NCBI GenBank assembly: GCA_944391465.1
Contig: CALXTS010000004.1
Location: forward strand, 7,942 to 71,941
Origin: an uncultured Alphaproteobacteria bacterium
GTDB taxonomy: Bacteria; Pseudomonadota; Alphaproteobacteria; RF32; CAG-239
DNA length: 64,000 bases
Direction of reading: 5' to 3'
Shown here: piece after piece, positions 1,036-58,806 of the stretch
How the letters are laid out: each line of letters starts with the position of its first letter
Position numbering within the stretch: position 1 is the stretch's first letter
Position numbers and translations under genes: made by a program
Notes under the pieces: generated by a model
What the model was told of the DNA's origin: nothing
Database searches by the model: none
The model's input: the letters and a program-made list of their open reading frames with translations, nothing else

Positions 1036-1039
1036 ATCA

Positions 1040-42109: not shown

Positions 42110-42457
42110 TTATCCGTTGGTTGCAGAATCAAATGAATCGTTAAATCCTGCTTGACCTGTTGAGTCACCGGTTGCGTATGTTACGATAGAACCTGCGGCC
42201 GCAACAATTGCCAAACCTACAGCCAATCCGGCAAACCATGTCCATTTAATCTTACCGGTAATCGCCGTAAAGGCAACAGCTATCAAACCAAAACCACCGA
42301 CAACGAAGAATATTTTCTTAACTTCGGTAAATACGTTCAAAGCCTTTTCTTTTGCTGTTGACATAACAGACTGAGCTGATGCATCTCCTGCAAAGGCCAT
42401 CAGTGTAAACACTGCTACCAGACAGAATGTCCAGATATTATTTTTGATAAAGCGCAT
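42110..42457 (-). CDS. virB2: VirB2/TrbC-type T4SS pilin (115 aa precursor)
   Basis: Long signal peptide (WTFCLVAVFTLMAFAGDASAQ), then a two-helix hairpin KKIFFVVGGFGLIAVAFTAITGKIKWTWFAGLAVGLAIVAAAGSIVTYATG. First gene of the array that continues to virB3-virB4. SD AAGGAGA. Confidence 0.75.
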   Translation of the reverse strand: MRFIKNNIWTFCLVAVFTLMAFAGDASAQSVMSTAKEKALNVFTEVKKIFFVVGGFGLIAVAFTAITGKIKWTWFAGLAVGLAIVAAAGSIVTYATGDSTGQAGFNDSFDSATNG

Positions 42458-44696: not shown

Positions 44697-44751
44697 TAAG
44701 TATCTATCGCGCTTGATTATTTAATTTTCAGTATGTATGATAAGGAAAAAT

Positions 44752-45495
44752 ATGAAAAAATTAAAATTAGGGATTGAAAAAATGAGTAAATTAACCTTTA
44801 GCACTGTGTCCTTAATGTCTATTTTGACCTTAACAGGATGCTCATGTTTCGACAGCTGGGGGGCCGGAGATACTTATCTTGACACAAGCTACGAAACAGA
44901 AGTTGTTGCGGTTGCTCCGACACAGAACACCCCTACGACCCAACCAGCTTTGCCTACAGGTCCGATTTACACTGACCCTAATCTGCCGCCCGATAATAAT
45001 GACTTTGTGAACTTTCACGAAACTCAGGCGAATTATCGCGAGTTTGGGGAAAGAACTCCTCGGGATCAGCGTATTGTAACAGCGAGCGCCGGAAGTAACC
45101 TTTCCGCCTCTATTCCGCCGACAATTGATGAAGAAGTTACCGCTTATGAGGAAGAAATTCGAAACGGCTCAGAAGAAGTCTTTGAAGAAGGGGTAAGTGA
45201 AATTTCCGGTGGTACTAATGAAGATCCGGTTGAAGATTGGTTAGCGGAAGAAGGAAATACGTTGAAAGGACTATTAACAGAATGGAGTGAGAGATCTGGT
45301 TGGCGTTTGATATGGAACACCAACAGAAATTATAAACTTTCTGCTGGTGCAATGTTCCGTGGACGATATGCGGATGTCGCTTCTGCGCTTATTCGCTCTT
45401 TTGCAAGAGCGCGTCCGGCTCCAGTTGCTACTTTTTATAAAGGAAATCGTGTCTTGCTTGTAGAGACAATGGAGGATGAGAATGCATATAACTAA
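44752..45495 (+). CDS. pilL: PilL-like lipoprotein with TcpQ-type C-terminal domain (type IVb pilus)
   Basis: ATG 44752 follows AAGGAAA; the ORF track gives 44737. Lipobox ILTLTGCS. The C-terminal segment WLAEEGNTLKGLLTEWSERSGWRLIWNTNRNYKLSAGAMFRGRYADVASALIRSF resembles the TcpQ/PilL domain. It lies directly before the secretin. Confidence 0.65.
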   Translation: MKKLKLGIEKMSKLTFSTVSLMSILTLTGCSCFDSWGAGDTYLDTSYETEVVAVAPTQNTPTTQPALPTGPIYTDPNLPPDNNDFVNFHETQANYREFGERTPRDQRIVTASAGSNLSASIPPTIDEEVTAYEEEIRNGSEEVFEEGVSEISGGTNEDPVEDWLAEEGNTLKGLLTEWSERSGWRLIWNTNRNYKLSAGAMFRGRYADVASALIRSFARARPAPVATFYKGNRVLLVETMEDENAYN

Positions 45496-47086
45496 TTTTG
45501 GAAAAATTACGCTTGGCTTGTGTGTTGCAACTTTGGTTGCCTCTTGCTCCATTGCGACCAGTATGGATGCGACTATTGATCGAGATGTGGAAGCTGCGAC
45601 TCAATTAAAAGAAGAGTCAAAAATGCCGACAAGACCTTCTAATGAGAATTTAATTAAAGTAAAAGATGATATCTGGCTCGGCAATACCAGCGAAGTTGAG
45701 TATGAAGGAGATCCATTGCCGGCTTATTTAGAAGGAGCTGACGGTATTACCTTAATCAGTAACAGACCGATTACTTTATTTGAAATCGGAGATATGATTA
45801 ATAAAACGACATCTATCGGCGTAAGATATCAGTCCCAATTGGAAACTGATGTTAAAACTACCGGTGGAGAAAATAAACCTACACCAGAAAGTATTAATGC
45901 CGATTGGGCGGAGCCTAACAAAATGTTGGTTTCTTATCAGGGACCTTTAAGTGGCTTTTTAAATGATGTTTCTAGCCGTTTTGGCTTATGGTGGAAATAT
46001 GAAAAGAAAGAAATTCACTTTTATAAATATATAACCAAAACATTTGTCGTTTATAGTTTGCCTACAAATCCAAACTTATCCGTCAACGTCGGAGGATCTT
46101 CTTCGGGTGAAGGCGGAAGTTCGTCAATATCTTTGACCAGCAGTGCTCAGTTTGAATTGTGGCAAAATATTGAAAAGAGTATTTCTTCCATGATTGGAGA
46201 AGGAGCAAAATTGACGATGGCTCCTTCTGATGGTACGATTACATTAACAGCGACACCTGATGATATTCGTAAAGTTGCGGCTTATGTGAACGAGCAAAAT
46301 AATCGTTTGTCTCGTCAAGTTGCTATCAGCGTAAAGGTTTTGCAAGTTTCTATTACAGATACTGATGATTATGGCTTGGATTTGAAAGCTGCTTTCAAAG
46401 ATGGCATCACAAATGTTTCTTTAGCAGGTTCTTCAAGTGTTATGACATCCGAGAAGGATTTGGCTAATGGTTTTTCTTGGGGTATTTTGAAGAAAAATTG
46501 GTCTGCAGATGCTGCCGTTAAGGCTTTATCACAACAGACTAATGCAAGTTTGGTAACAAGTGGTACAGTCACGACATTAAACAATAAACCGGCCCCTATT
46601 CAAGTTACTCAAAAACAGAACTATATTGCTGAAATGACTAAGACTAATAGTGGTTCTGATGGGGATAACTATGATATTTCAGTTACGACAGAAGAAGTTG
46701 AGACTGGTTTTACATTAGATGTTTTGCCTCGTATTCTGGAACATGGTCGGATGTTGATAATGTTTAACATGACGCTTTCTGACTTGATTTCTTTGGAAAA
46801 AGTTGAATTTGGTTCTACAGATGATAACCAATACATCCAGAACCCGAAAATTGAGTCTCGCGCATTTTCTCAAGAAGTGGCTTTAACTTCCGGTGAGTCT
46901 TTAATCTTGACCGGATATGAAAAAGTTAACAACACCGCAACAAAAGAAGGAACGGGTTCTGCAAATAACTCTATTTTGGGAGGTTCTGCTTCTGCTAACA
47001 AGGAGAGAAATCTGTTAGTTATCATTCTGACACCGATTGTGTTGGAATCTCCGTTAATGCCGGAATCCAGAATGTCGATGAATTAG
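45482..47086 (+). CDS. pilN: Secretin lipoprotein (R64 PilN / TcpC / BfpB class)
   Basis: ATG 45482 lies 6 nt after GGAGG. Lipobox TLVASCS. Secretin domain strings: VAISVKVLQVSITDTDDYGLDL, LVTSGTVTTLNNKPAPIQV, ETGFTLDVLPRILEHGRMLIMFNM, GESLILTGYEK, NLLVIILTPIVLE. Confidence 0.85.
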   Translation: MHITNFGKITLGLCVATLVASCSIATSMDATIDRDVEAATQLKEESKMPTRPSNENLIKVKDDIWLGNTSEVEYEGDPLPAYLEGADGITLISNRPITLFEIGDMINKTTSIGVRYQSQLETDVKTTGGENKPTPESINADWAEPNKMLVSYQGPLSGFLNDVSSRFGLWWKYEKKEIHFYKYITKTFVVYSLPTNPNLSVNVGGSSSGEGGSSSISLTSSAQFELWQNIEKSISSMIGEGAKLTMAPSDGTITLTATPDDIRKVAAYVNEQNNRLSRQVAISVKVLQVSITDTDDYGLDLKAAFKDGITNVSLAGSSSVMTSEKDLANGFSWGILKKNWSADAAVKALSQQTNASLVTSGTVTTLNNKPAPIQVTQKQNYIAEMTKTNSGSDGDNYDISVTTEEVETGFTLDVLPRILEHGRMLIMFNMTLSDLISLEKVEFGSTDDNQYIQNPKIESRAFSQEVALTSGESLILTGYEKVNNTATKEGTGSANNSILGGSASANKERNLLVIILTPIVLESPLMPESRMSMN

Positions 47087-47106
47087 CGTATCTGAGGAGA
47101 TAGTCT

Positions 47107-48381
47107 TTGCTGGAAGATGCAGGTTTATTAGATGATGATTATGATGGCGGCTCCAGACGTTCGTGGGCGACATCTATTACTGTTGACGGAACAACTTATG
47201 CAACAAGTTTGTTCTGGCAGCCGCTACAAAATCTAAATGATCCTTTCCAAGAAGTTGAAGAAGCCTCGGCTGAAGTCTTGGAAGGTGCAGATTTATTCTG
47301 TATCAAGGGCGGAAAAGCTCCTCAGTTTGGTATTTGCGTTTCTCAGGAAGGCTATAAAAACGGCGAATTTGCTGCTGCTGTGGCTTTATCTACCGCTATG
47401 TCTAATTACGCTTCTTATGTCGGTGTTTTTAAGACAGATAAAGGTTGGTGGTATTTTTGCGTCAGAAACGATATTATCTTATCTGACGGTGATATGCTCT
47501 TTTTAGATGAAGAAGAAGCTAAAACACAGTTTATGTCAATGTTGGCGGTTCCGGATTGGGATAAAAAGTTTGCTCCGACGGAGTGGAATATCCCAGAAAC
47601 TGAAAATGTTGATATTGAGGAAATTATTTCCCGAGGTGCCAAAGCAAAGCTACAGAAAATTAAAGGTTTACGTGGCGCTAAACTTTTAGCTGTTATTGGC
47701 GTTTCTGCTGTTGTCGGAATTTGGCTATTTTCGAGCATCATCAACCATATCTTTTTGACACCTCAGGTGCGTCCGGTTGTTGTCCCCGTTAAGCCTAAAG
47801 TTATTAAACAAATTGAACAACCTCCAGAGATTAAGCCTTGGGAAAAGGTTACAAATCCCGTTATGACAGCACAGGAATGCTATAAAGGAATTGTTCGTTT
47901 GGTTCAGATTTTACCGCCAGGTTGGAAAATTTCTCCGTTAACCTGTACATCGGGAAGCATTGCAACATCATGGACCAGAGAAATGGGACGCCTGTCTTGG
48001 ATGAAAAAGGCTCTGGATGAAAGTGGCTATACTTTAACTGGGGTCAGTTTTTCCGGTGACGGGAATAATGTTACGGTTACAATGCCTTTACCCGTAATTG
48101 AACAACAGGCATCTCCTCCGACAATGACGATGGTAAATTTGCAAAATGACATCAATGATACTTTCCAAGCAATCGGTTATACTATTTCTCTTGGATCTTC
48201 ATCATACACGTCGAACAGAGGAACAATTTATAAGATGATTACCTTTACAATGGATTCAACTCATGATCCATTGGTTTGGATAAAATTATTAACAAAATAT
48301 TCAGGACTTGAGTTTAAAACTATAGGGTATAACCCAGACTCAAAAACTTGGCATTATGAGGGGATAATCTATGTTTTATAG
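47107..48381 (+). CDS. PilO-like pilus accessory protein (R64 nomenclature), by size and position
   Basis: 424 aa with a TTG start after GAGGAG. One central TM (LLAVIGVSAVVGIWLFSSII). It lies between the secretin and the PilP-like gene, as in R64/ICE pil clusters. No motif-level proof. Confidence 0.45.
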   Translation: MLEDAGLLDDDYDGGSRRSWATSITVDGTTYATSLFWQPLQNLNDPFQEVEEASAEVLEGADLFCIKGGKAPQFGICVSQEGYKNGEFAAAVALSTAMSNYASYVGVFKTDKGWWYFCVRNDIILSDGDMLFLDEEEAKTQFMSMLAVPDWDKKFAPTEWNIPETENVDIEEIISRGAKAKLQKIKGLRGAKLLAVIGVSAVVGIWLFSSIINHIFLTPQVRPVVVPVKPKVIKQIEQPPEIKPWEKVTNPVMTAQECYKGIVRLVQILPPGWKISPLTCTSGSIATSWTREMGRLSWMKKALDESGYTLTGVSFSGDGNNVTVTMPLPVIEQQASPPTMTMVNLQNDINDTFQAIGYTISLGSSSYTSNRGTIYKMITFTMDSTHDPLVWIKLLTKYSGLEFKTIGYNPDSKTWHYEGIIYVL

Positions 48382-49867
48382 AATAGAAAATAATTTGGCT
48401 GTTTTGCTACTTGCTTTGTTAATGAGCGGAAACTTATCGGAAGCTAAGGCTCAAGGTGTTGTCTCTTTAGGCAATGAGATAAAATCTGAAGATAATACCT
48501 TAAATTTGGCTATCCCTAATGAAGATGCTATTTTTGGAGATGATGGGAATTCTGCCAACGCAAAGCCTAAGCCGGTTAAGAATATTGATGGTCCCTTACC
48601 TCTACCTGCAAGTATTACCGGAGCCAAGCCGGTAGCTGATAATAAAAAGCCTTCAGGAGATGGGCCGTTGCCTTTACCTGCAAGCATTACAGGAGGCGCT
48701 AACTCTAAAAGTTCCGATGGACCTTTGCCTTTGCCGGCAAGTATTACCGGGAAAGCGTCCAATGCCCTTGACATTCCAGAACCATTTATGCCTAAGGCCT
48801 CTTCTAACTTAGGAAAGCTGGGGGCTACTCAACCTTCTACTCTAACTAGTGATGACTTATTGAACGATCCTATTTTTTCGCAGGCTTCAGACTTGGAAAA
48901 ACAAACGACGTTGCTAAACTTGGAATTGAGAAAAGAAAAAGTCAAAAATGAAATAGAAGCGATTAAAAAACAACGTCAGCAAGCCATTGAAGATGAAAAG
49001 GACAAACAAGCCGCTAAAGAAAAAGCTAAAATAGAGTGGGAAAAAGCTCAAGAGCAGAAGGTTATTCAAGAACAACAAAAGTTGAGAGAACTTGATATTG
49101 ATTTTGAAAAATTACGCCAAGAGCGTTTGCTTAATGCATATAAAAACAAAATGCTCGAAGAACACCAAAAGTGGGTTGTCCTTAATGGTGAAATGCTTGA
49201 ACAGTTAGATAACATGAAAAAAGATCAGAAAGATGTTATTTCTGACGCTAAAAACAAACTGGAAAACATTAAAAATATGGCTAATTTAGCAAAAATTAAA
49301 ATAGCTGAAGCTAAAGGTGAATACAAACGGGAAATTTCTGATTTGCAAACGCAAGTCTCTATTTTGAAAGCGCGTATTGACGCTCAGGAAAAAGAGCTAC
49401 AAGCTCGTGAGTTGGAAAAACAAAATCCATTTGCCGAAGGCGCAGAAAATCCTGAAGCTGCAGAAGTTCCTGAGGAAAATATTGTTGAGGAGATAGAGGT
49501 TCCGGAGGCTCAGCTTTCAGATATGTATGCCGTTATGGAAATTCGTGGTCAAGGTGGTGAATTAATTGCTAAAATCATGAATCAGAACGGAGCTAACTTC
49601 TTTGTGAAGAAAGGAACTGCTCTTCAGAGCGGGCATATTATTGATGAAATCCAACCAACATATGTGACCGCAACAAAGAATGGTATTAAAGATTATCTTT
49701 ACTTTTCTGCCGGAGGAATTGTTCCTCTTGAACCTAAACAAGACTTAACATCAATTAATAAGGTATCAGATGTCAGTTCTGATGAAATGCCGGAAGAAGG
49801 TGAGGCTCGGAGCTTTGTAACAAGTGATGGAGTCCCCGGTCTTGGAGGACAAATGATAGGAAGATAA
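48371..49867 (+). CDS. PilP-like protein with signal peptide, three DGPLPLPASITG repeats, coiled coil and C-terminal beta domain
   Basis: Signal peptide LLLALLMSGNLSEAKAQ. Lys/Glu coiled coil. The C-terminal segment YAVMEIRGQGGELIAKIMNQNGANFFVKKGTALQSGHIIDEIQPTYVTATKNG resembles the PilP beta-sandwich pattern. Position is immediately 5' of the ATPase. Confidence 0.5.
   Translation: MFYRIENNLAVLLLALLMSGNLSEAKAQGVVSLGNEIKSEDNTLNLAIPNEDAIFGDDGNSANAKPKPVKNIDGPLPLPASITGAKPVADNKKPSGDGPLPLPASITGGANSKSSDGPLPLPASITGKASNALDIPEPFMPKASSNLGKLGATQPSTLTSDDLLNDPIFSQASDLEKQTTLLNLELRKEKVKNEIEAIKKQRQQAIEDEKDKQAAKEKAKIEWEKAQEQKVIQEQQKLRELDIDFEKLRQERLLNAYKNKMLEEHQKWVVLNGEMLEQLDNMKKDQKDVISDAKNKLENIKNMANLAKIKIAEAKGEYKREISDLQTQVSILKARIDAQEKELQARELEKQNPFAEGAENPEAAEVPEENIVEEIEVPEAQLSDMYAVMEIRGQGGELIAKIMNQNGANFFVKKGTALQSGHIIDEIQPTYVTATKNGIKDYLYFSAGGIVPLEPKQDLTSINKVSDVSSDEMPEEGEARSFVTSDGVPGLGGQMIGR
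48587..48751 (+). repeat. Three copies of a 36-bp coding motif (DGPLPLPASITG) spaced 72 and 57 bp apart
   Basis: Copies at 48587-48622, 48659-48694 and 48716-48751. Codons differ between copies while the peptide is conserved. Confidence 0.85.
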
Positions 49868-51513
49868 TGGCGGAAGAAGAAGGCGAAGAAAAGACTGAGG
49901 CCGTTGAAAATAATACTGAAGGAAAACAAGATACTGCTCAGTCAAAATCAATAGTTGAAAAATATTTTTCGGGTGGAGCTCAGCTTTTGACTTTGCCTAA
50001 TTCTTCTTTAGCCGTAAACGATGATACACGTCGATTACTTGCATTATTTTCAGATGGACGGTTTCTTGTTGTTGAAACTCATAAATTTGATGGACGTGTT
50101 CTTAGTTTTGAGGTTATGGTTCGCAAAAGGCGTTTACCAATTGCCAAACCTACCTATGTTTCACAAGCTGAACTTAATGCCATTTACAGTATTGGTGAGC
50201 GTCGACAGGCAGCTATTGAAGTTGAAGAAGATTCAAGTTTTGACCAAGTCCAAATGCAGAAGGACTTTGTTAACGTTGTTGTTCGTGCCGCAGATAAAAA
50301 AGTTTCCGATATTCACGTTATTGTTGCTGACAATACACAAATTATGTTCCGTATAAACGGTATGATGACAACCGAAATGGAGTATAATAAAGAATGGGGA
50401 GAATCTTTTGTTCGTGCCGCCTTTGCTTCTGCCGATATTTCAGATTCAAACTACGCCCAAAATGAATTCCAAGCAGCTCAAAAGTTGGGATCTACACCTT
50501 TGCGCGGTTCTAAAGGTAAACTTATGCTTCCGCATAACGTTTTAGCTATTCGTTTGCAATTTAATCCGATTGCTTTTGGTTCTCAGTATCTGGTTATGCG
50601 TCTGCTGTATGCTGATGATAACCCTGAGGGAAACGGCGATTTATCTTCTCTTGGTTTTGGAGAATACGAAGAAAATCTATTTTATAGACTACGAGCCGTT
50701 CCTGTTGGTTTGAATGTTGTTGCCGGCCCTACGGGTTCAGGAAAATCGACAACATTGCAAAGAAACATGATTAAACTTCTGCAAGAAAAAAATTATGAAA
50801 TTAATTTGATTACCGTGGAAGACCCTCCTGAGTATCCTATCCCCGGAGCTCGGCAAATGCCGGTTACAAACGCCAATACCGAGGAAGAGAAGGATGAACA
50901 GTTTACAAAGGCCTTGTCTGCAGCTTTGCGTTCCGACCCTGACGTAATGATGGTTGGTGAGATACGTTCCTTGTCTGCGGCTCAGTTAACTTTTAAGGGC
51001 GCCTTATCCGGTCACGGTGTCTGGACGACTTTACACGCCAACTCTGCACCGGCAATTATTGCTCGTTTGAGAGATATGGGCGTAGAAACATTTAAATTAC
51101 TTGACCCCGAATTAATGAAAGGTCTTATTTCTCAGCGTTTATTCCGTAAATTGTGTCCTCACTGTCGTGTTTCCGTTAAAGACAGGTTAGATGAACCTGC
51201 TGTGCAGCGTTTGAAGGTTGCTTTGGGAGATTTTGGTATTGAAAATACTTATGTTCGTGGTCCGGGCTGTAAATATTGTAACAATACCGGCATTAAGGGA
51301 CGTATGAGTGTTCCTGAGATAATCTTGCCTGATGCTATGTTCTTAGAGCTAATGATTAAAGGAGAAACCAGAAAAGCTATTGACTACTGGACCAGCGATT
51401 TAAACGGACGTACATTAAAAGAAGCTGCTATTGAAAGAATGTTAAAAGGTTTTATTGATTTGGATGAAGTTGAACGTTGGTGTGGCTTGCTTGACCAACG
51501 CCCTGTTTACTAA
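49867..51513 (+). CDS. pilQ: GspE/PilB-family pilus assembly ATPase (R64 PilQ equivalent)
   Basis: Walker A GPTGSGKST, Asp box LITVEDPPEYP, Walker B DPDVMMVGEIR, His box GHGVWTTLHAN, tetra-Cys motif CPHC...CKYC. Confidence 0.93.
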   Translation: MAEEEGEEKTEAVENNTEGKQDTAQSKSIVEKYFSGGAQLLTLPNSSLAVNDDTRRLLALFSDGRFLVVETHKFDGRVLSFEVMVRKRRLPIAKPTYVSQAELNAIYSIGERRQAAIEVEEDSSFDQVQMQKDFVNVVVRAADKKVSDIHVIVADNTQIMFRINGMMTTEMEYNKEWGESFVRAAFASADISDSNYAQNEFQAAQKLGSTPLRGSKGKLMLPHNVLAIRLQFNPIAFGSQYLVMRLLYADDNPEGNGDLSSLGFGEYEENLFYRLRAVPVGLNVVAGPTGSGKSTTLQRNMIKLLQEKNYEINLITVEDPPEYPIPGARQMPVTNANTEEEKDEQFTKALSAALRSDPDVMMVGEIRSLSAAQLTFKGALSGHGVWTTLHANSAPAIIARLRDMGVETFKLLDPELMKGLISQRLFRKLCPHCRVSVKDRLDEPAVQRLKVALGDFGIENTYVRGPGCKYCNNTGIKGRMSVPEIILPDAMFLELMIKGETRKAIDYWTSDLNGRTLKEAAIERMLKGFIDLDEVERWCGLLDQRPVY

Positions 51514-51524
51514 GGTGATAAAAA

Positions 51525-52646
51525 ATGGCTGAAACAAAACGCAAATCTCAATCTATGCAACTGGCGATGAAACGCTTCAATACCATTGAAGAATATTACG
51601 CCAAAATGATTGTGCAGATGTCTAATAAAACTCGGTTAAAGATGTATCGGAAAATTGCATCTTTAATGAAAAACCGATTTTCCTTAATGGATGCTTTAGA
51701 TATGCTTCATGATGGGGCTAGTAACGGCGGTAAAAACCCTAGCGAACCTCTTGCTATTGCTATTGCCGCTTGGGGAAGAGCATTAAACAACGGTAAAACT
51801 TTCTCCGATGCTTTGAAAGGCTGGGCGCCCGACCGAGAGAGATTGATGCTTTCTGTTGGTGATGTTTCTGACCTTGAAGGTGCTTTGTTAAACCTTATTA
51901 AAGTAACCGAAGGTTCTACCAAAATGATTAGGCCTATTGTCGGAGCTATTGCTTATCCTGCCTTTTTGTTTATGATGTCTGTTTTAATTATTTATGCCAT
52001 CGGTGTTTATATGGTTCCGCCTATGCTTGATGCGGCGCCGGGCGTTCAGTGGCATGGAATGGCTGCCGACTTGGTGGATTTATCTTATTGGATTAAAGAA
52101 AATTGGTTAGTTGCTTTCGCTTCACTGCCTATAATTATGATTGTCATTTATGCTACAGTCGGTATTTGGACCGGCCCTATTCGTGTTCTTTTTGACAGTA
52201 TTCCCCCATGGTCACTTTATAAAGTATTTGTCGGTATTAGTTGGCTTTTGGCTTTGTCTGCTCTTGTAAAAGGAGGAACGCCTGTATCGACAGCAATGCG
52301 CGCTCTAAGACGTGATTCCACAAAATATTTAAAGGAACGAATTGATAAGACTTTGGTTTTTATCAATAACGGTGATAACTTAGGTCAAGCTCTTGCTAAA
52401 ACAAAATTAAACTTCCCTGATCCGGAAATTATCGGAGATTTAAAAATTTATTCTGAATTGGATAACTTTGAAGAAGCTCTGGATAATCTTGCAAATGAGT
52501 GGTTGGAAGAATCTGTATTTGTAATTGAAGAAAAAGCCAGTATTTTGAACATGGTCGCTATTTTATCCGTTGGTGCTGTTATTGCCTGGGCCGTTATGGG
52601 TACTTTTGAAATGCAAGACCAGATTACAAGCGGTATGGGAGGTTAA
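51525..52646 (+). CDS. pilR: GspF/PilC-family inner-membrane platform protein (R64 PilR equivalent)
   Basis: 373 aa with two cytoplasmic helical repeats and three TM segments (IAYPAFLFMMSVLIIYAIGVYMV, LVAFASLPIIMIVIYATVGIW, ILNMVAILSVGAVIAWAVMG). It follows the ATPase. Confidence 0.88.
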   Translation: MAETKRKSQSMQLAMKRFNTIEEYYAKMIVQMSNKTRLKMYRKIASLMKNRFSLMDALDMLHDGASNGGKNPSEPLAIAIAAWGRALNNGKTFSDALKGWAPDRERLMLSVGDVSDLEGALLNLIKVTEGSTKMIRPIVGAIAYPAFLFMMSVLIIYAIGVYMVPPMLDAAPGVQWHGMAADLVDLSYWIKENWLVAFASLPIIMIVIYATVGIWTGPIRVLFDSIPPWSLYKVFVGISWLLALSALVKGGTPVSTAMRALRRDSTKYLKERIDKTLVFINNGDNLGQALAKTKLNFPDPEIIGDLKIYSELDNFEEALDNLANEWLEESVFVIEEKASILNMVAILSVGAVIAWAVMGTFEMQDQITSGMGG

Positions 52647-52647
52647 A

Positions 52648-53250
52648 ATGGATTTTTTATCCCAAAAATTAAAAAATTTTGCCACTTTTGTAAAAACGCA
52701 ATATACTCAAGCATCTTTAAAAAAAAGAGCTCTGTTTTTGTTGCTTTTTGCTTTTTTAATTTTTGTTTTTAACGGATTTTTTTATAGAGCTGAGACTTTA
52801 GAAGCGCCGGAAGAACCTTCCAATCTGTTAAAATTAACGGAAAATATACGACGTTATTATCAAAATCGTCCTGATTATTGGGGGCTTAACTCTGATTCTA
52901 TAATTAAGAATAAAATTGTTCCGTTAGCTTTATTAAAAAATGACCGAATAATCTCCGGTTTCGGAACTGATATTTTAGTAGGCAACACTCCCAATGGTTC
53001 AATGCTTATGCCCGGAGCCAGAAGTTTTAATATTATTTATAGTAATTTAAATAAAAAGCAGTGCATTGAATTAGCTTCCGGAAAATTTGATGAAAAATTT
53101 TGGCTAGGAATTATAGATGTTACTATCAACAATAGCATTAAAAATGAGGTTTTTAGTTGGAATGACAAAAAAAATATTTTGCCAATTAAAAAAAATATTG
53201 CTAAAGAGATTTGTAAAAGCTCTAATACGATAATTTTTCATATTGAATAA
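52648..53250 (+). CDS. Pilin-fold paralog lacking a prepilin leader (200 aa)
   Basis: ATG 52648 follows GGGAGG; the ORF-track start 52570 overlaps pilR. One TM (ALFLLLFAFLIFVFNGFFY). ISGFGTDILVGNTPNGS...FNIIYSNLNKKQCIELASGKFDEKFWLGIIDVTINN parallels the pilins' ISAFGGEVLVSAVQGADGT...FQIIFNGLGKDACTSLASSDWGTDGLVGIIVNG. Confidence 0.5.
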   Translation: MDFLSQKLKNFATFVKTQYTQASLKKRALFLLLFAFLIFVFNGFFYRAETLEAPEEPSNLLKLTENIRRYYQNRPDYWGLNSDSIIKNKIVPLALLKNDRIISGFGTDILVGNTPNGSMLMPGARSFNIIYSNLNKKQCIELASGKFDEKFWLGIIDVTINNSIKNEVFSWNDKKNILPIKKNIAKEICKSSNTIIFHIE

Positions 53251-53280: not shown

Positions 53281-53323
53281 TTACTATTGACATAATTGTT
53301 CATTTTTTATTAATTTGTTATAG
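53281..53323 (+). promoter_or_regulatory. Conserved 43-bp upstream element of pilin gene 1 (candidate promoter)
   Basis: TTACTATTGACATAATTGTTCATTTTTTATTAATTTGTTATAG aligns without gaps to 54058-54100 and 54844-54886. It contains TTGACA and a TAATTT box about 18 nt later, and ends 39 bp before the ATG. Confidence 0.45.
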
Positions 53324-53361
53324 TTATAGTAAAGGGTAACAGAAAGTTAGGGAGAGAAACT

Positions 53362-53979
53362 ATGAGAAATTTCTTCAAAAATGAACAATCCGGTCGTTCT
53401 ATGGTCGAGATGCTTGGCGTGCTTGCCATCATCGGTGTCTTGTCCGTCGGCGGTATCTCCGGTTATTCTAAGGCCATGGCTAAATTCAAGCTAACCAAAG
53501 CTCAAGACCAATTAACCATGATGATTATGAACATCAGAACCGCTTATGTTACCTCTCCTGGATATCCGGGACTGAATAACTCTTTAGCTGCTGATTATAA
53601 ACTTGTTTCTCAAGAAATGGTTGTTTCTCAAGGCGGTAGCAGTCTTATCAGTGCTTTTGGTGGTGAAGTATTGGTTAGTGCCGTACAAGGAGCTGACGGA
53701 ACTGCAAACGGTGCTTTTCAGATTATATTTAATGGTTTGGGTAAAGATGCTTGCACATCCTTAGCTTCTTCTGATTGGGGTACTGACGGTTTGGTCGGCA
53801 TCATTGTTAATGGCTCAAAACAATCAGTTTCTAATACTATTGCTACAGGCGGTGAAAGTTGTACGACAGGTATTGCAGGAAAACTCTGCTTACCTTCATC
53901 CCTTCCGGTCTCTCTTCCGAATGCCCGTGCAGCTTGTAGCTCCAATAACCAAAATTCAATCAGTTGGGTTTATAACTAA
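53362..53979 (+). CDS. pilS: Type IV prepilin, variant A
   Basis: Leader MRNFFKNEQSG then RSMVEMLGVLAIIGVLSVGGISGY (Gly at -1, Glu at +5, hydrophobic helix). C-terminal Cys pair DAC...AAC brackets a variable region. SD GGGAGAG. Confidence 0.88.
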   Translation: MRNFFKNEQSGRSMVEMLGVLAIIGVLSVGGISGYSKAMAKFKLTKAQDQLTMMIMNIRTAYVTSPGYPGLNNSLAADYKLVSQEMVVSQGGSSLISAFGGEVLVSAVQGADGTANGAFQIIFNGLGKDACTSLASSDWGTDGLVGIIVNGSKQSVSNTIATGGESCTTGIAGKLCLPSSLPVSLPNARAACSSNNQNSISWVYN

Positions 53980-54001
53980 TACTTTCTCAGATTTCTTTAC
54001 C

Positions 54002-54034
54002 AGAGCAACATTTGTTTGATGTTGCTCTTTTTTG
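54002..54034 (+). terminator. Rho-independent terminator after pilin 1
   Basis: AGAGCAACA (54002-54010) pairs with TGTTGCTCT (54020-54028), then TTTTT. Confidence 0.75.
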
Positions 54035-54057
54035 TTGAGGAAAATTTGCTGATGTTA

Positions 54058-54100
54058 TAACTAAAGACAGAATTGTTCACTTTTTTTTAATTTATTATAT
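54058..54100 (+). promoter_or_regulatory. Conserved 43-bp upstream element of pilin gene 2
   Basis: TAACTAAAGACAGAATTGTTCACTTTTTTTTAATTTATTATAT. Ends 35 bp before the ATG at 54135. Confidence 0.4.
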
Positions 54101-54134
54101 TTTATTGTATAGGAAATATTCTAGGAGATAAATA

Positions 54135-54761
54135 ATGAGTAATTTCTTCAAAAATGAGCAATCCGGTCGTTCTATGGTGGAAATGCTCGGCGTACTCGCT
54201 ATCATCGGTGTTTTATCGGTTGGTGGTATTTCCGGTTATTCTAAAGCTATGGCTAAATATAAATTAACCAAAGCTCAAGACCAATTAACCATGATGATTA
54301 TGAATATCAGAACCGCTTATGCTACTTCTCCTGGATATCCGGGTTTAGATAATTCTTTGGCTGCTGATTATAAACTTGTTTCTCAGGAAATGGTTGTTTC
54401 TCAAGGCGGCAGCAGTCTTATCAGTGCTTTTGGCGGAGCTGTTGATGTTAGTGCTATTAAGGGTGCTGACGGTACTGCCAATGGTGCTTTTACAATCATT
54501 TTCAAAGGTTTGGGTAGAGATGCTTGTACTTCTTTAGCTTCCTCTGACTGGGGTACCGATGGTTTAATCGGTATTAGAGCTAAAAATGCGAGTTTATCTG
54601 TAAGTGACGCCTCCGCTGATGTTGTAAAAACAGCCAGTGGAACTGCTGGAAACGGAGATACAAATATTCAGTTACCTTCTACCTTGCCCATGAGTTTGGT
54701 TAAAGCCAGAGCTGCTTGCAGTTCTAATAACCAGAACTCAATTATGTGGATTTATAACTAG
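54135..54761 (+). CDS. pilS: Type IV prepilin, variant B (copy 1)
   Basis: MSNFFKNEQSG then RSMVEMLGVLAIIGVLS. The mature protein is identical to 55685-56311. Its variable region IRAKNASLSVSDASADVVKTASGTAGNGDTNIQLPSTLPMSLVKARAAC differs from variants A and A'. Confidence 0.88.
   Translation: MSNFFKNEQSGRSMVEMLGVLAIIGVLSVGGISGYSKAMAKYKLTKAQDQLTMMIMNIRTAYATSPGYPGLDNSLAADYKLVSQEMVVSQGGSSLISAFGGAVDVSAIKGADGTANGAFTIIFKGLGRDACTSLASSDWGTDGLIGIRAKNASLSVSDASADVVKTASGTAGNGDTNIQLPSTLPMSLVKARAACSSNNQNSIMWIYN
54141..54759 (+). repeat. 619-bp direct repeat, copy 1 (pilin B coding sequence)
   Basis: Base-for-base comparison with 55691-56309 (offset 1550) shows a single mismatch: T at 54701 versus C at 56251. 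Identity starts at codon 3 and ends at the second base of the stop codon (TAG versus TAA). Confidence 0.9.
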
Positions 54762-54780
54762 ATTAGTCTTTTCTATTTTC

Positions 54781-54810
54781 AGGCGATGCTAACAACATCG
54801 CCTTTTTTTA
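54781..54810 (+). terminator. Rho-independent terminator after pilin 2
   Basis: AGGCGATG (54781-54788) pairs with CATCGCCT (54796-54803), then a T run. Confidence 0.75.
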
Positions 54811-54843
54811 TTTAACTAAAGTTAGGCCTTTTTATTTTTTTAC

Positions 54844-54886
54844 TTACTAAGGATAGAATTGTTTATGCTTTATTAATTTGTTATTG
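54844..54886 (+). promoter_or_regulatory. Conserved 43-bp upstream element of pilin gene 3
   Basis: TTACTAAGGATAGAATTGTTTATGCTTTATTAATTTGTTATTG. Ends 36 bp before the ATG at 54922. Confidence 0.4.
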
Positions 54887-54921
54887 TTAAACTATAAGTT
54901 AATTAATATAGGAGAGGAACC

Positions 54922-55545
54922 ATGAAAATATTAAATAAAAATGAGCAATCCGGTCGTTCTATGGTTGAGATGCTCGGCGTGCTTGCCATCATCGGCGTTT
55001 TATCGGTTGGTGGTATTTCCGGTTATTCTAAAGCTATGGCTAAATATAAATTAACCAAAGCCCAAGACCAATTAACCATGATGATTATGAATATCCGAAC
55101 CGCTTATGTTACCTCTCCTGGGTATCCGGGGTTAGATAATGCTTTGGCTGGAGATTATAAACTTGTTTCCCAGGAAATGGTTGTTTCTCAAGGCGGCAGC
55201 AGTCTTATCAGTGCTTTTGGTGGTGAGGTTATTGTTAGTGCCGTACAGGGAGCTGACGGTACTGCTAATGGTGCTTTCCAAATCATTTTTAACGGTCTGG
55301 GTAAAGATGCTTGCACTTCGCTTGCTTCTTCTGACTGGGGTACTGATGGTTTATTAGGAATTAAAGTTAGTAGTGCTAAGCAATCTAAAGATGATTCTAT
55401 TGCTACAGGTGCAACTGCTGCTGATTGCTCTTCTGATGCAAAAGATAAACTTTGTCAACCGGCAGAACTTCCTATCGCTTTGGGTTTAGCTCGCTCTGCT
55501 TGTAGCTCTAATAACCAAAATTCAATCAGTTGGGTTTATAACTAG
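54922..55545 (+). CDS. pilS: Type IV prepilin, variant A'
   Basis: MKILNKNEQSG then RSMVEMLGVLAIIGVLS. The body is closest to variant A (GEVIVSAVQGADGTANGAFQIIFNGLGKDACTSLASSDWGTDGL). Its Cys-bracketed region is distinct and has an extra Cys pair (DCSSDAKDKLC). Confidence 0.88.
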   Translation: MKILNKNEQSGRSMVEMLGVLAIIGVLSVGGISGYSKAMAKYKLTKAQDQLTMMIMNIRTAYVTSPGYPGLDNALAGDYKLVSQEMVVSQGGSSLISAFGGEVIVSAVQGADGTANGAFQIIFNGLGKDACTSLASSDWGTDGLLGIKVSSAKQSKDDSIATGATAADCSSDAKDKLCQPAELPIALGLARSACSSNNQNSISWVYN

Positions 55546-55565
55546 GTTAAAAATTTTCCTCTCTT

Positions 55566-55591
55566 AGGCGGTGTTTCACCGCCTTTTTTTA
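55566..55591 (+). terminator. Rho-independent terminator after pilin 3
   Basis: AGGCGGTG and CACCGCCT form a stem with a short loop, then TTTTTTT. Confidence 0.7.
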
Positions 55592-55684
55592 TAAAAAATA
55601 TTGCATAAATAAAATTATAGTTGATAGATTTTATCTTTATAGCTAGAGTATGTTTAATATTTTATGATTCCTTGGGAGGTTTTC

Positions 55685-56311
55685 TTGTTAAATTTCTTCA
55701 AAAATGAGCAATCCGGTCGTTCTATGGTGGAAATGCTCGGCGTACTCGCTATCATCGGTGTTTTATCGGTTGGTGGTATTTCCGGTTATTCTAAAGCTAT
55801 GGCTAAATATAAATTAACCAAAGCTCAAGACCAATTAACCATGATGATTATGAATATCAGAACCGCTTATGCTACTTCTCCTGGATATCCGGGTTTAGAT
55901 AATTCTTTGGCTGCTGATTATAAACTTGTTTCTCAGGAAATGGTTGTTTCTCAAGGCGGCAGCAGTCTTATCAGTGCTTTTGGCGGAGCTGTTGATGTTA
56001 GTGCTATTAAGGGTGCTGACGGTACTGCCAATGGTGCTTTTACAATCATTTTCAAAGGTTTGGGTAGAGATGCTTGTACTTCTTTAGCTTCCTCTGACTG
56101 GGGTACCGATGGTTTAATCGGTATTAGAGCTAAAAATGCGAGTTTATCTGTAAGTGACGCCTCCGCTGATGTTGTAAAAACAGCCAGTGGAACTGCTGGA
56201 AACGGAGATACAAATATTCAGTTACCTTCTACCTTGCCCATGAGTTTGGTCAAAGCCAGAGCTGCTTGCAGTTCTAATAACCAGAACTCAATTATGTGGA
56301 TTTATAACTAA
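55685..56311 (+). CDS. pilS: Type IV prepilin, variant B (copy 2)
   Basis: TTG 55685 lies 5 nt after GGGAGG (55674-55679). The ORF-track ATG 55664 has no SD and would add an atypical extension. From codon 3 the DNA is identical to 54141-54759 apart from one synonymous change. Confidence 0.85.
   Translation: MLNFFKNEQSGRSMVEMLGVLAIIGVLSVGGISGYSKAMAKYKLTKAQDQLTMMIMNIRTAYATSPGYPGLDNSLAADYKLVSQEMVVSQGGSSLISAFGGAVDVSAIKGADGTANGAFTIIFKGLGRDACTSLASSDWGTDGLIGIRAKNASLSVSDASADVVKTASGTAGNGDTNIQLPSTLPMSLVKARAACSSNNQNSIMWIYN
55691..56309 (+). repeat. 619-bp direct repeat, copy 2 (pilin B coding sequence)
   Basis: See copy 1. The flanks (promoter region, first two codons, stop codon, terminator) are unrelated between the copies. 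Confidence 0.9.
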
Positions 56312-56330
56312 TTTTGTTATTTGTCAAAAA

Positions 56331-56363
56331 AAGCAGCGTTTTAATAAAGCGCTGCTTTTTTTG
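56331..56363. terminator. Bidirectional terminator between pilin 4 and the convergent SH3 gene
   Basis: AGCAGCG (56332-56338) pairs with CGCTGCT (56350-56356), flanked by an A run and a T run. Confidence 0.7.
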
Positions 56364-58492: not shown

Positions 58493-58583
58493 GGATAGAT
58501 GGCCGAGTGGTCGAAGGCGCACGATTGGAAATCGTGTATACCCCTAAAGGGTATCCAGGGTTCGAATCCCTGTCTATCCGCCA
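58493..58583 (+). tRNA. tRNA-Ser (anticodon GGA), class II with long variable arm
   Basis: Acceptor GGATAGA/TCTATCC, anticodon arm CACGA-TTGGAAA-TCGTG, variable arm TACCC..GGGTA, T arm CAGGG-TTCGAAT-CCCTG, discriminator G, encoded CCA. 91 nt. Confidence 0.9.
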
Positions 58584-58625
58584 TTTACAAAAAAGCCCTG
58601 CCTTGTGCGGGGTTTTGTTGTAAAT
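58565..58625 (+). repeat. 61-bp direct repeat, copy 1 (last 19 nt of tRNA-Ser plus its terminator hairpin)
   Basis: AATCCCTGTCTATCCGCCATTTACAAAAAAGCCCTGCCTTGTGCGGGGTTTTGTTGTAAAT. It contains the hairpin CCCTGC-CTTGT-GCGGGG followed by TTTT. Confidence 0.9.
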
Positions 58626-58745: not shown

Positions 58746-58806
58746 AATCCCTGTCTATCCGCCATTTACAAAAAAGCCCTGCCTTGTGCGGGTTTTTGTT
58801 GTAAAT
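58746..58806 (+). repeat. 61-bp direct repeat, copy 2 (att-like partial tRNA-Ser 3' end)
   Basis: Identical to copy 1 except for one base (GCGGGT versus GCGGGG). It is separated from copy 1 by a 120-bp visibly GC-richer segment (58626-58745). Confidence 0.9.

What the first reader, a model, noticed from the sequence alone, without database searches (positions are those of the whole stretch)
53362..56311. Four tandem prepilin genes (A-B-A'-B) with a hypervariable Cys-bracketed region
Four complete prepilin genes, each with its own SD and terminator, follow each other. All share a near-identical leader and N-terminal helix (QSG then RSMVEMLGVLAIIGVLSVGGISGYSKAMAK) and a conserved first ~130 residues. 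They also share an identical last ~15 residues (ACSSNNQNSI(S/M)W(V/I)YN).

They differ sharply between the conserved Cys of DACTSLASSDWGTDGL and the Cys of A(R/K)(A/S)AC, which is the D-region that is surface-exposed in type IV pilins. Variants A and A' each add an extra Cys pair there; B has none.

Conserved flanks around a variable cassette are the classic substrate for gene conversion or antigenic variation, or for building mixed or alternative filaments. R64-type systems vary the PilV adhesin by a shufflon. Here variation seems to sit in the major pilin instead.
Basis: partly seen in the sequence, partly recalled or inferred. Interest (0 to 1): 0.7.

Follow-up and report, generated by a model that had tools for sequence, protein, structure and literature searches.

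The report
Four-gene array of pilus subunit variants
An uncultured gut alphaproteobacterium carries four complete tandem genes for the main subunit of a type IVb pilus that differ mainly in one probably surface-exposed stretch and are reshuffled between copies and strains by ordinary recombination, a multi-copy version of known pilin diversity rather than a new switching mechanism.

Summary
Four complete PilS/BfpA/TcpA-class (type IVb) prepilin genes lie at 53362-56311. Each has its own ribosome-binding site and terminator, and they end an R64/TCP-like pilus operon.

The genes share the leader, helix, core and last strand. They differ in a roughly 30-33-residue stretch in the middle of the disulfide-bracketed D-region. 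Copies 2 and 4 differ by one base.

- **Recombination is real.** Copies 2 and 4 are identical only within the coding sequence. In sister strains slot 4 holds a distinct fourth type. The B-type genes are mosaic (MaxChi p of 0.007 or less). Between strains that are otherwise 99-100% identical, the array is a sharply bounded island only 80-90% identical.
- **This is not a programmed antigenic-variation system.** There are no silent or truncated cassettes, no recombinase, no shufflon repeats and no G4 motif.
- **The copies are old and conserved.** They have high synonymous divergence (dS 0.4-0.9) under strong purifying selection (dN/dS 0.04-0.13), and each variable type is conserved between strains.

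Smaller arrays of 2-3 genes occur in 13 of 78 related gut species. Expression and surface exposure are inferred, not shown. I rate it a new variant of a known kind, of moderate interest.

The parts
42900..52646 (+). Type IVb pilus assembly operon: unknown 598-aa protein, TcpQ/PilM-like, PilN-type secretin, PilO, 498-aa protein, PilQ ATPase and PilR platform. It lies directly upstream of the pilin genes.
   Evidence: Pfam hits: TcpQ 57 bits, Secretin 58 bits, PAP_PilO 41 bits, T2SSE 222 bits, T2SSF 84 bits. The gene order is the same in related contigs.
52648..53250 (+). Divergent PilS-fold ORF (200 aa) with an N-terminal membrane segment but no Gly(-1)/Glu(+5) prepilin motif. It is the last gene before the divergence island.
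   Evidence: PF08805, 25.5 bits. About 27% identity to the pilins by tblastn. 98.5-100% identical to strain L083 over this gene.
53281..53339 (+). Conserved upstream element of gene 1 (ACTAnTGnnAnnATTGTTCA...TTAATTTGTTATA...TATA). It is promoter- or operator-like.
   Evidence: Repeat family D3. Conserved in 13 pilin modules from several species, including orphan copies. Promoter function is inferred only; the simple sigma-70 scan was not enriched.
53362..53979 (+). Pilin gene 1, type A (205 aa). Variable stretch about 53803-53892, with an extra Cys pair.
   Evidence: AF2 model m7176a1cf6a0d, pLDDT 77.8.
54002..54028 (+). Intrinsic terminator after gene 1.
54057..54116 (+). Conserved upstream element of gene 2.
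54135..54761 (+). Pilin gene 2, type B (208 aa). Variable stretch about 54576-54674, with no extra Cys.
   Evidence: AF2 model m0c903069e56b, pLDDT 76.5. Foldseek top hits are TcpA 8uhf, the ETEC type IVb pilus 9iuf and S. Typhi PilS 3fhu.
54410..54485 (+). 76-nt patch of 11 synonymous differences between this strain and samples L001 and L100. The same patch occurs in gene 4 at 55960-56035.
   Evidence: All 22 mismatches in 18.6 kb against L001 fall in these two patches. 7 of the 11 patch sites match gene 3 of the window.
54781..54803 (+). Intrinsic terminator after gene 2.
54843..54902 (+). Conserved upstream element of gene 3.
54922..55545 (+). Pilin gene 3, type A' (207 aa). Variable stretch about 55363-55458, with an extra Cys pair.
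55566..55584 (+). Intrinsic terminator after gene 3.
55685..56311 (+). Pilin gene 4, a second copy of type B. The probable start is TTG 55685, after GGGAGG at 55674-55679; an alternative ATG lies at 55664. Its upstream region is unrelated to those of genes 1-3. Variable stretch about 56126-56224.
   Evidence: It differs from gene 2 by one base in the coding sequence, and identity stops at the leader codons and at the stop codon. In strains L083 and L084 the same slot holds a different type.
56325..56363 (+). Intrinsic terminator after gene 4. It marks the right edge of the divergence island.

Best explanation
The locus is a polymorphic multi-copy major-pilin array of a type IVb pilus (the R64 PilS / BfpA / TcpA class) in an uncultured gut-associated alphaproteobacterium.

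Four complete, separately terminated genes encode subunits that share everything needed for processing and polymerisation: the leader with Gly(-1), Glu(+5), the alpha-1 helix, the core sheet, the disulfide and the last strand. They differ in a 30-33-residue stretch in the middle of the D-region. This strain has three types, A, B and A', with B present twice. Sister strains have four types.

The proposed mechanism is that one assembly machine can be supplied with alternative or mixed subunits. That changes the part of the filament that phages, antibodies, partner cells or neighbouring pili would contact.

The repertoire is old and each type is conserved. It is renewed slowly by general homologous recombination that uses the conserved gene ends. 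The events seen are whole-gene conversion between slots, short conversion patches, and replacement of the array or parts of it between strains. No dedicated high-frequency switch is involved.

Shown here: the anatomy, family membership, fold, location of the variation, purifying selection, the divergence island and the mosaicism.

Inferred: that all four genes are expressed, that the variable stretch is exposed in the filament, and what the selective agent is.
For: **Family and context**
- Pfam PilS and Bundlin hits on all four genes, within a TcpQ-secretin-PilO-ATPase-platform operon.
- Profile hits to BfpA, TcpA and PilS structures.
- The AF2 model matches TcpA, the ETEC type IVb pilus/CofA and S. 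Typhi PilS at Foldseek probability 1.00.

**Location of the variation**
- 43-55% nt identity in the variable stretch against 85-90% elsewhere.
- Family-wide entropy peak with indels at residues 149-183.

**Old, selected paralogues**
- N-region dS 0.38-0.88 with dN/dS 0.04-0.13.
- Each variable type is conserved between strains, dN 0.02-0.10.

**Divergence island**
- Window against L083: the flanks are about 99-100% identical (mean 99.3%), but 53.25-56.35 kb is only 80-90% identical, and about 64-71% in the 3' part of gene 4. The edges are sharp.
- 'Orthologous' genes show dS of 0.37-1.29.

**Recombination**
- Genes 2 and 4 are identical only within the coding sequence.
- Slot 4 holds another type in L083 and L084.
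- Mosaic with a breakpoint near nt 305, permutation p 0.0005-0.007.
- In the N-region, genes 1 and 3 are no closer to their slot counterparts in L083 than to paralogues in the same genome.
- A 76-nt patch carries all differences from L001.
- The same coding-sequence-bounded homogenisation occurs in another species, L007.

**Recurrence and robustness**
- 13 of 78 species-representative loci with a detectable pilin have 2-3 motif-bearing pilin genes, 12 of them in tandem. In the five arrays where it could be measured, the N-part was more conserved than the C-part.
- Three independent assemblies give the same four-gene structure.
Against: - There are no expression or protein data, so 'all four used' is an assumption. 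Gene 4 lacks the conserved upstream element.
- Exposure of the variable stretch rests on homology to TcpA, BfpA and PilS, not on a filament model.
- dN/dS in the variable stretch is below 1 wherever it can be estimated, and synonymous sites there are saturated. Positive selection is therefore not demonstrated.
- Only two array haplotypes of the species were sampled.
- All data are metagenome assemblies. The interior of a 620-nt exact repeat may be a shared consensus, so the 'concerted' patch in genes 2 and 4 could be partly an assembly effect.
- The selective agent is unknown.
Confidence: 0.6

Rival explanations
1. Programmed antigenic variation. One gene is the expression locus and the others act as donors, with frequent RecA-dependent gene conversion of the variable stretch, as in Neisseria pilE/pilS.
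For: Conserved ends flank a variable stretch. Conversion events have clearly happened. Gene 4 lacks the shared upstream element.
Against: - All four genes are complete, with a leader, ribosome-binding site and terminator.
- No truncated copies exist in the 64 kb, and there is no G4 motif.
- dS of 0.4-0.9 in the conserved parts argues against frequent conversion.
- Variable types stay discrete and slot-specific between strains, and no mosaic was seen inside the variable stretch.
- Arrays are almost identical in independent samples.
Confidence: 0.08
2. Fixed division of labour. The types are functionally specialised subunits that are always used together, either as a heteropolymeric filament or as separate filaments for, say, adhesion versus T4SS-linked cell contact. 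The diversity has nothing to do with evasion or strain identity.
For: - Each type is old and under purifying selection, including its variable stretch.
- Slot order A-B-A'-B/B2 is kept between strains.
- Precedents exist. Streptococcus sanguinis has three major pilins PilA1-3 (PMC11121087), and Thermus thermophilus builds two pili from two pilins (PMC7203116).
- A VirB-type T4SS is the divergent neighbour.
Against: - Most related species manage with one gene: 65 of 78 species-representative loci with a detectable pilin.
- One slot was overwritten by another type without loss of the array.
- The array is by far the most divergent segment between near-identical strains. That is typical of loci under diversifying or frequency-dependent selection.
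Confidence: 0.22
3. Simple gene amplification for dosage, with the copies drifting apart neutrally.
For: Major pilins are needed in large amounts. Two copies are identical. Near-identical duplicates also occur in L007.
Against: Divergence is concentrated in one stretch, while the rest is under strong purifying selection. The variable types are themselves conserved across strains and recognisable across species.
Confidence: 0.05
4. Assembly artefact: the second B copy, or the whole array, is a mis-join of reads from co-existing strains.
For: The data are metagenomic. Related contigs break or carry N-gaps inside the array (L002 and L003). L083 has an 80-nt scaffolding duplication.
Against: - Three independent samples give the same four-gene order with unique flanks.
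- The 3' end of gene 4, including part of its B-type variable stretch, is contiguous with unique downstream sequence.
- A single-base difference between genes 2 and 4 is reproduced in L001.
Confidence: 0.03

Closest known systems
Allelic polymorphism of type IVb major pilins (V. cholerae tcpA, EPEC bfpA, ETEC lngA)
   Same: Same protein class and fold. Variation is concentrated in the C-terminal, D-region part. The pilin locus is far more divergent than its flanks between related strains. tcpA allelic variation is discussed in PMC12146696; the bfpA and lngA comparisons are from my own knowledge.
   Different: Those systems carry one major pilin gene per operon, so their diversity is between strains only. 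Here three or four types sit in tandem in one genome, and recombination also acts between the copies.
Neisseria pilE/pilS antigenic variation
   Same: Conserved segments flank hypervariable D-region sequence, and gene conversion moves sequence between copies. The hypervariable region of PilE is discussed in PMC3950515.
   Different: Neisseria donors are promoterless and 5'-truncated, one locus is expressed, conversion is frequent and needs a G4 element, and the products are mosaics. Here all copies are complete genes. There is no G4 motif, no partial copies, discrete stable types and high synonymous divergence.
R64/IncI and Salmonella Typhi thin-pilus systems (PilS major pilin, PilV shufflon with Rci)
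   Same: The assembly genes are the same kind of type IVb set, and the pilins hit the PilS Pfam family. A conjugation-type secretion system is next door.
   Different: No pilV, rci or 19-bp inverted shufflon repeats were found in the window (gene tables). The neighbouring T4SS is VirB/Trb-like, not I-type. The variability lies in the major pilin.
Multiple major pilin genes in one type IV pilus locus (Streptococcus sanguinis PilA1-3/PilE1-2; Thermus thermophilus PilA4/PilA5; flp1-3 of Tad loci)
   Same: Several complete major-pilin genes serve one machinery (PMC11121087, PMC7203116; the Tad flp arrays are from my own knowledge).
   Different: Those are type IVa, Gram-positive or Tad systems. 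Strain-level cassette replacement and coding-sequence-bounded conversion, as seen here, are not their defining features. Co-assembly was not tested here.
Pseudomonas aeruginosa pilA allele groups and Dichelobacter nodosus fimA serogroups (my own knowledge)
   Same: Ancient, discrete pilin types occupy one chromosomal site between conserved flanks. They are exchanged by recombination, giving an island of divergence.
   Different: These have a single expressed gene per strain (type IVa), often with type-specific accessory genes. There is no tandem array of types.

Membership tests
Type IVb major pilin (PilS/BfpA/TcpA class) | Class III (prepilin) signal with Gly at -1 and Glu at +5, followed by a hydrophobic alpha-1 helix. 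| tested here: met
   The sequence reads QSG|RSMVEMLGVLAIIGVL. Met14 and Glu16 are invariant and Gly11 and Arg12 nearly invariant in 33 homologues. A long N-terminal helix appears in the AF2 model. Cleavage itself was not tested, and no prepilin peptidase gene was found in the window.
Type IVb major pilin (PilS/BfpA/TcpA class) | Sequence membership of the PilS/Bundlin families above the curated threshold. | tested here: met
   PF08805 at 42.9-43.8 bits (cut-off 22) and PF05307 at 29.8-32.1 bits (cut-off 22.3).
Type IVb major pilin (PilS/BfpA/TcpA class) | Type IVb pilin fold with a C-terminal disulfide-bracketed D-region. | tested here: met
   Foldseek matches TcpA 8uhf, ETEC 9iuf/3s0t and PilS 3fhu at probability 1.00, TM 0.5-0.66. 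Cys131 and Cys195 are invariant. Disulfide formation is inferred.
Type IVb major pilin (PilS/BfpA/TcpA class) | Long leader (about 13-30 aa), a large mature protein (about 180-200 aa) and a non-Phe +1 residue (criteria from my own knowledge). | tested here: inconclusive
   The mature length of 194-197 aa and +1 = Arg fit. The leader of 11 aa is shorter than typical.
Type IVb major pilin (PilS/BfpA/TcpA class) | Encoded within a type IVb assembly operon (TcpQ/PilM, PilN secretin, PilO, ATPase, platform). | tested here: met
   The same order is seen in related contigs.
Neisseria-type pilE/pilS antigenic variation | Silent donor copies lacking a promoter, ribosome-binding site and the 5' coding region. 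| tested here: not met
   All four copies are complete with a ribosome-binding site and terminator. There are no partial copies in the window.
Neisseria-type pilE/pilS antigenic variation | A G-quadruplex-forming element next to the expression locus. | tested here: not met
   There is no G3+N1-7 x4 motif on either strand anywhere in the window.
Neisseria-type pilE/pilS antigenic variation | Frequent mosaic conversion of the variable region. | tested here: not met
   Variable types are discrete and slot-conserved between strains. The arrays are stable between samples. Rates within a population are not testable with these tools.
IncI/R64 shufflon | Rci tyrosine recombinase, a pilV gene and inverted 19-bp sfx repeats bounding invertible segments. 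| tested here: not met
   No integrase or recombinase family appears among the ORFs scanned or in the precomputed gene tables. Only weak AT-rich inverted repeats occur in the array. A few small ORFs of the window were not scanned.
Multi-major-pilin type IV pili (for example S. sanguinis) | Two or more complete major-pilin genes in the pilus locus. | tested here: met
Multi-major-pilin type IV pili (for example S. sanguinis) | Co-assembly of the different pilins into filaments. | not testable with these tools
   This needs pilus purification and mass spectrometry, or cryo-EM.

The most novel reading that the evidence does not exclude
The pilin genes may be portable modules, each made of a conserved upstream element plus a coding sequence with conserved ends. 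Together they would form a genome- and population-wide pool of exchangeable complete cassettes. The pool would include array slots, orphan copies next to a prophage end (L090, L093) and copies next to an IS200-type transposase (L091).

Whole-gene conversion between slots and import from other lineages would then let a gut commensal change the 'serotype' of a type IVb pilus that works with the neighbouring VirB-type secretion system, on ecological time scales. This would be a cassette system built from complete genes rather than silent ones. Pilus-specific phages, host IgA or partner recognition could drive it.
Probability: 0.15. Interest if true: 0.65.

Novelty: new variant of a known kind. 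Interest (0 to 1): 0.42.

Why it matters
Type IVb pili such as TCP, BFP, CFA/III, Longus and the R64 thin pilus are textbook single-pilin systems. Their surface variation is known only between strains, or for R64 in the tip adhesin.

This locus shows a large, uncultured group of gut alphaproteobacteria in which some species keep two to four major-pilin types side by side. The array is the most divergent and recombining spot between otherwise identical strains.

That makes the locus a ready marker for strain typing. It is also a candidate determinant of phage susceptibility, aggregation or partner specificity, or antibody recognition in a poorly known member of the gut microbiota. It offers a natural system for asking whether a type IVb machine can build mixed or alternative filaments. 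It does not reveal a new molecular mechanism.

Tried and rejected
1. **Silent cassettes.** tblastn and blastn of the three types against the whole window found only the four genes and the distant PilS-like ORF.
2. **G4 element.** None was found.
3. **Shufflon or invertible switch.** There are no convincing inverted repeats in the array and no recombinase in the scanned ORFs.
4. **Phage-borne pilins.** Two orphan pilins lie next to a prophage. However, no relative exists in IMG/VR. The one 'Bacteriophage sp.' GenBank record examined (MT836177) has the ORF layout of a pil operon, judged from ORF sizes and order only. The other two were not examined. I kept this only as a side note.
5. **Plasmid origin.** The only hit is a 27% match to a Nitratidesulfovibrio pilin.
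6. **RNA leader structure.** An 8-bp long-range pairing, ATTGTTCA/TGARCAAT, is conserved in 13 of 13 modules. It shows no compensatory changes and has only -3.4 kcal/mol, so it is not accepted as an RNA element. No Rfam family matches in 42-60 kb except two tRNAs.
7. **Sigma-70 promoter scan.** It was not enriched over shuffles and missed the conserved upstream element.
8. **L002 as a single-pilin strain.** This was rejected because the scaffold has a run of N between the start of gene 2 and the end of gene 4.
9. **Positive selection on the variable stretch.** It cannot be shown, because synonymous sites are saturated between types and dN/dS is 0.05-0.10 (up to 0.22 across the slot-4 type replacement) between alleles in the same slot.
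10. **Hypermutation (DGR-like) as the cause of the island.** This was rejected. Most differences in the conserved part are synonymous, spread over whole genes and intergenic DNA, and no reverse transcriptase was seen.

Full report
**1. What is there**

The region 53362-56311 holds four intact ORFs on the + strand, of 205, 208, 207 and 208 (or 215) aa. All four pass the curated thresholds of Pfam PilS (PF08805) and Bundlin (PF05307).

Each is preceded by a purine-rich ribosome-binding site. Each is followed by a predicted intrinsic terminator, at 54002-28, 54781-803, 55566-84 and 56325-63.

Genes 1-3 also share a 60-nt upstream element (family D3; alignment). Gene 4 has an unrelated upstream region. 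It most likely starts at TTG 55685, five bases after GGGAGG, which gives it the same 11-residue leader as the others.

No pilin fragments occur anywhere else in the 64 kb.

**2. Pattern of similarity**

The three types have these nucleotide identities:

| Segment | nt identity |
|---|---|
| Codons 1-145 | 85-90% |
| Variable stretch | 43-55%, with indels |
| Last 18 codons | 75-91% |

The variable stretch covers residues about 148-180 in gene 2 numbering. It is the central part of the segment bracketed by the invariant Cys131 and Cys195.

Types A and A' carry an additional Cys pair there; type B does not. Genes 2 and 4 differ by a single base within the coding sequence. Their identity begins in the leader codons and ends at the stop codon, and the flanks are unrelated.

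In an alignment of 120 homologues the same stretch is the entropy maximum of the family: 2.80 bits against 0.99 bits for residues 12-148, with many gaps.

**3. What the proteins are**

The mature N-terminus reads G|RSMVEMLGVLAIIGVL, with Glu at +5.

A profile of the family finds BfpA (1zwt, 1e-7), TcpA (8uhf) and S. Typhi PilS (1q5f) among solved structures. AlphaFold models have pLDDT 76.5 and 77.8 and pTM 0.70-0.72. They match TcpA, the ETEC type IVb pilus/CofA and PilS at Foldseek probability 1.00.

In the models the variable stretch lies between a core beta-strand (144-150) and the helix that ends at the second Cys (188-194). It has the lowest confidence of the globular domain in type B.

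Exposure in the filament is inferred from what is known of the D-region of TcpA, BfpA and PilS (my own knowledge). It was not computed.

**4. Context**

Immediately upstream is a type IVb assembly operon: TcpQ/PilM-like, PilN-type secretin, PilO, ATPase and platform. It is followed by a 200-aa PilS-fold ORF that lacks the prepilin motif.

Divergently transcribed from it is a VirB/Trb-type IV secretion system. Its components are TrbC/VirB2, VirB4, a weak sub-threshold VirB6-like match, two VirB8, VirB9/CagX, a 1515-aa VirB10/TrbI and VirB11.

Downstream are ordinary chromosomal genes and two tRNAs. No prepilin peptidase, pilV, rci or other recombinase was found.

The related loci in species-representative genomes whose titles name a source come from gut, faecal or rumen samples, and nearly all are labelled uncultured Alpha- or Proteobacteria. 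The hosts include human, deer, sheep and rabbit. The family is very large: 7798 of 8000 scored candidates reach E<=1e-3.

**5. Selection**

Among the paralogues the conserved N-region has dS 0.38-0.88 with dN/dS 0.04-0.13. The similarity of the 'flanks' is therefore maintained by purifying selection on the protein, not by recent homogenisation. Genes 2 and 4 are the only exception.

In the variable stretch synonymous sites are saturated between types. Between alleles of the same type in different strains, dN is only 0.02-0.10 (dN/dS 0.05-0.10). Each variable type is thus itself conserved, and positive selection cannot be demonstrated.

**6. Comparison with other strains**

Contigs from other samples carry the same locus.

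L001 and L100 are nearly identical to the window and have the same four genes. All 22 differences between the window and L001 over 18.6 kb are 11 synonymous changes in a 76-nt patch, repeated at homologous positions in genes 2 and 4. Seven of these 11 sites match gene 3 of the window. That is compatible with a short conversion tract.

L083 and L084 have flanks about 99-100% identical to the window. Between about 53.25 and 56.35 kb, however, identity drops to 80-90%, and to about 64-71% in the 3' part of gene 4. The edges are sharp, falling at the end of the PilS-like ORF and at the gene 4 terminator. Genes in the same slot have dS of 0.37-1.29 while their proteins are almost unchanged.

In L083 and L084 slot 4 holds a distinct fourth type, with 57% nt identity to gene 2 in the variable stretch. 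Related types occupy the last slot in another species (L094/L095). The B copy in slot 4 of the window lineage is therefore best explained by conversion from gene 2.

**7. Mosaicism**

The first 300 nt or so of the window's B genes match gene 4 of L083: 9-10 informative sites against 1. The rest matches gene 2 of L083: 76-81 sites against 9-12. The MaxChi breakpoint is near nt 305, with permutation p of 0.0005-0.007.

In the conserved N-region, genes 1 and 3 of the window are no closer to their slot counterparts in L083 than to paralogues of their own genome. From about nt 432 onwards, where the variable stretch begins, they clearly follow the slot. This decouples the history of the conserved part from that of the variable type.

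A different species (L007) has two adjacent pilin genes that are near-identical from the leader codons to the stop codon, with unrelated flanks. That is the same coding-sequence-bounded pattern.

Caveat: these are metagenome assemblies. The interior of an exact 620-nt repeat may be a shared consensus. Even so, the slot 4 type is anchored by sequence contiguous with unique flanks, and three assemblies agree.

**8. How general**

Of 79 species-representative loci, 78 had a detectable motif-bearing pilin gene:

| Motif-bearing pilin genes per locus | Number of loci |
|---|---|
| 1 | 65 |
| 2 | 10 (9 in tandem) |
| 3 | 3 |

In the five arrays where it could be measured, the N-part was 50-97% identical and the part after DWGxxG was 35-100% identical. 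Four genes were seen only in this species. Short-read assembly probably under-counts.

**9. Interpretation**

The best-supported reading is a polymorphic multi-copy major-pilin array. Several ancient, individually conserved subunit types can feed one type IVb machine. The array is reshuffled slowly by general homologous recombination that uses the conserved gene ends.

The stronger idea of classic antigenic variation is not. There are no silent cassettes, no G4 element, no recombinase, high synonymous divergence, discrete types and stable arrays between samples.

Whether the types are co-assembled, used alternately, or specialised cannot be decided here, and I give the 'fixed division of labour' rival 0.22. 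Candidate selective agents are pilus-specific phages, host antibodies, and self- or partner-recognition through pilus-pilus contacts, a known property of type IVb pili (my own knowledge).

**10. Novelty**

Several things are known already. Major pilins vary in the D-region, pilin loci can be islands of divergence, and some type IVa, Gram-positive and Tad systems have several major pilin genes (PMC11121087, PMC7203116, PMC3950515, PMC12146696).

I am not aware of a described type IVb (PilS/BfpA/TcpA-class) system with a tandem array of three or four major-pilin types and slot-to-slot whole-gene conversion. Two literature searches found none, but the library is incomplete.

I therefore file it as a new variant of a known kind, of moderate interest.

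Noticed in passing
L090:9914-10624 and L093:5086-5791: In a related genome (GCA_965314855.1) and in another sample, single orphan pilin genes sit between the end of a podovirus-like prophage and chromosomal yhdP. The prophage end carries an S24 repressor, terminase, T7-like capsid and head-tail connector. The two pilins have different variable types, both with the extra Cys pair, and both have the conserved upstream element. No pilin relatives were found in IMG/VR.
   Followed up: partly
L091:7568-11208: In the same related genome, two tandem pilin genes follow VirB8-VirB8 and a Y1 (IS200/IS605-type) transposase. They are not at the end of a pil operon.
   Followed up: no
window 10921-42457 (- strand) and 1025-4081: A VirB/Trb-type IV secretion system lies divergent from the pilus operon and has unusual giant components. 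VirB10/TrbI is 1515 aa with beta-flower repeats, and there is a 1113-aa beta-flower/RHS-repeat protein. An 1877-aa Ala/Glu/Lys-rich protein and a 213-aa protein appear, by eye, to carry VirB2-like membrane hairpins in addition to the TrbC/VirB2 gene at 42110-42457.
   Followed up: partly
window 52648-53250: A 200-aa PilS-fold protein has an N-terminal membrane segment but no Gly(-1)/Glu(+5) prepilin motif. It is 98.5-100% identical to strain L083 over this gene and sits directly before the divergence island. It may be a non-cleaved pilin-like component.
   Followed up: partly
window 53295-53302 / 53382-53389 and equivalents in genes 2-3 and 10 other modules: The octamer ATTGTTCA, about 65 nt upstream of the start, and its complement TGA(A/G)CAAT in codons 7-9 of the leader are conserved in 13 of 13 pilin modules from several species. 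They bracket the ribosome-binding site and start codon. No compensatory changes were seen, so this could be paired operator half-sites or simply a coding constraint.
   Followed up: partly
window 58493-58583, 58565-58625 and 58746-58806: The 3' end of tRNA-Ser(GGA) is part of a 61-nt direct repeat found again 181 nt downstream, which looks like an att-site scar. In strain L084 a CBASS-like gene set (SMODS/DncV-like nucleotidyltransferase plus patatin) lies about 0.7-4.6 kb downstream of the M20 peptidase gene, where similarity to the window ends. This suggests a variable defence-island site about 2 kb from the pilin array.
   Followed up: no
window 50390-50989 (pilQ ATPase gene): Strain L084 is only about 81% identical to the window and to L083 over this 600-nt block. 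The surrounding sequence is about 100% identical. This is a second recombination import within the pil operon.
   Followed up: no
L103:1004-1618: In another sample, slot 4 carries a B-type gene with a roughly 14-residue internal deletion in the variable stretch and a duplicated NFF in the leader. It lies on a scaffold, so it may be an assembly artefact.
   Followed up: no
L097 (GenBank MT836177, 'Bacteriophage sp.'): A virome-derived record labelled as a phage has the ORF layout of a bacterial pil operon ending in a pilin of this family, judged from ORF sizes and order only. It looks like a mislabelled bacterial contig.
   Followed up: partly
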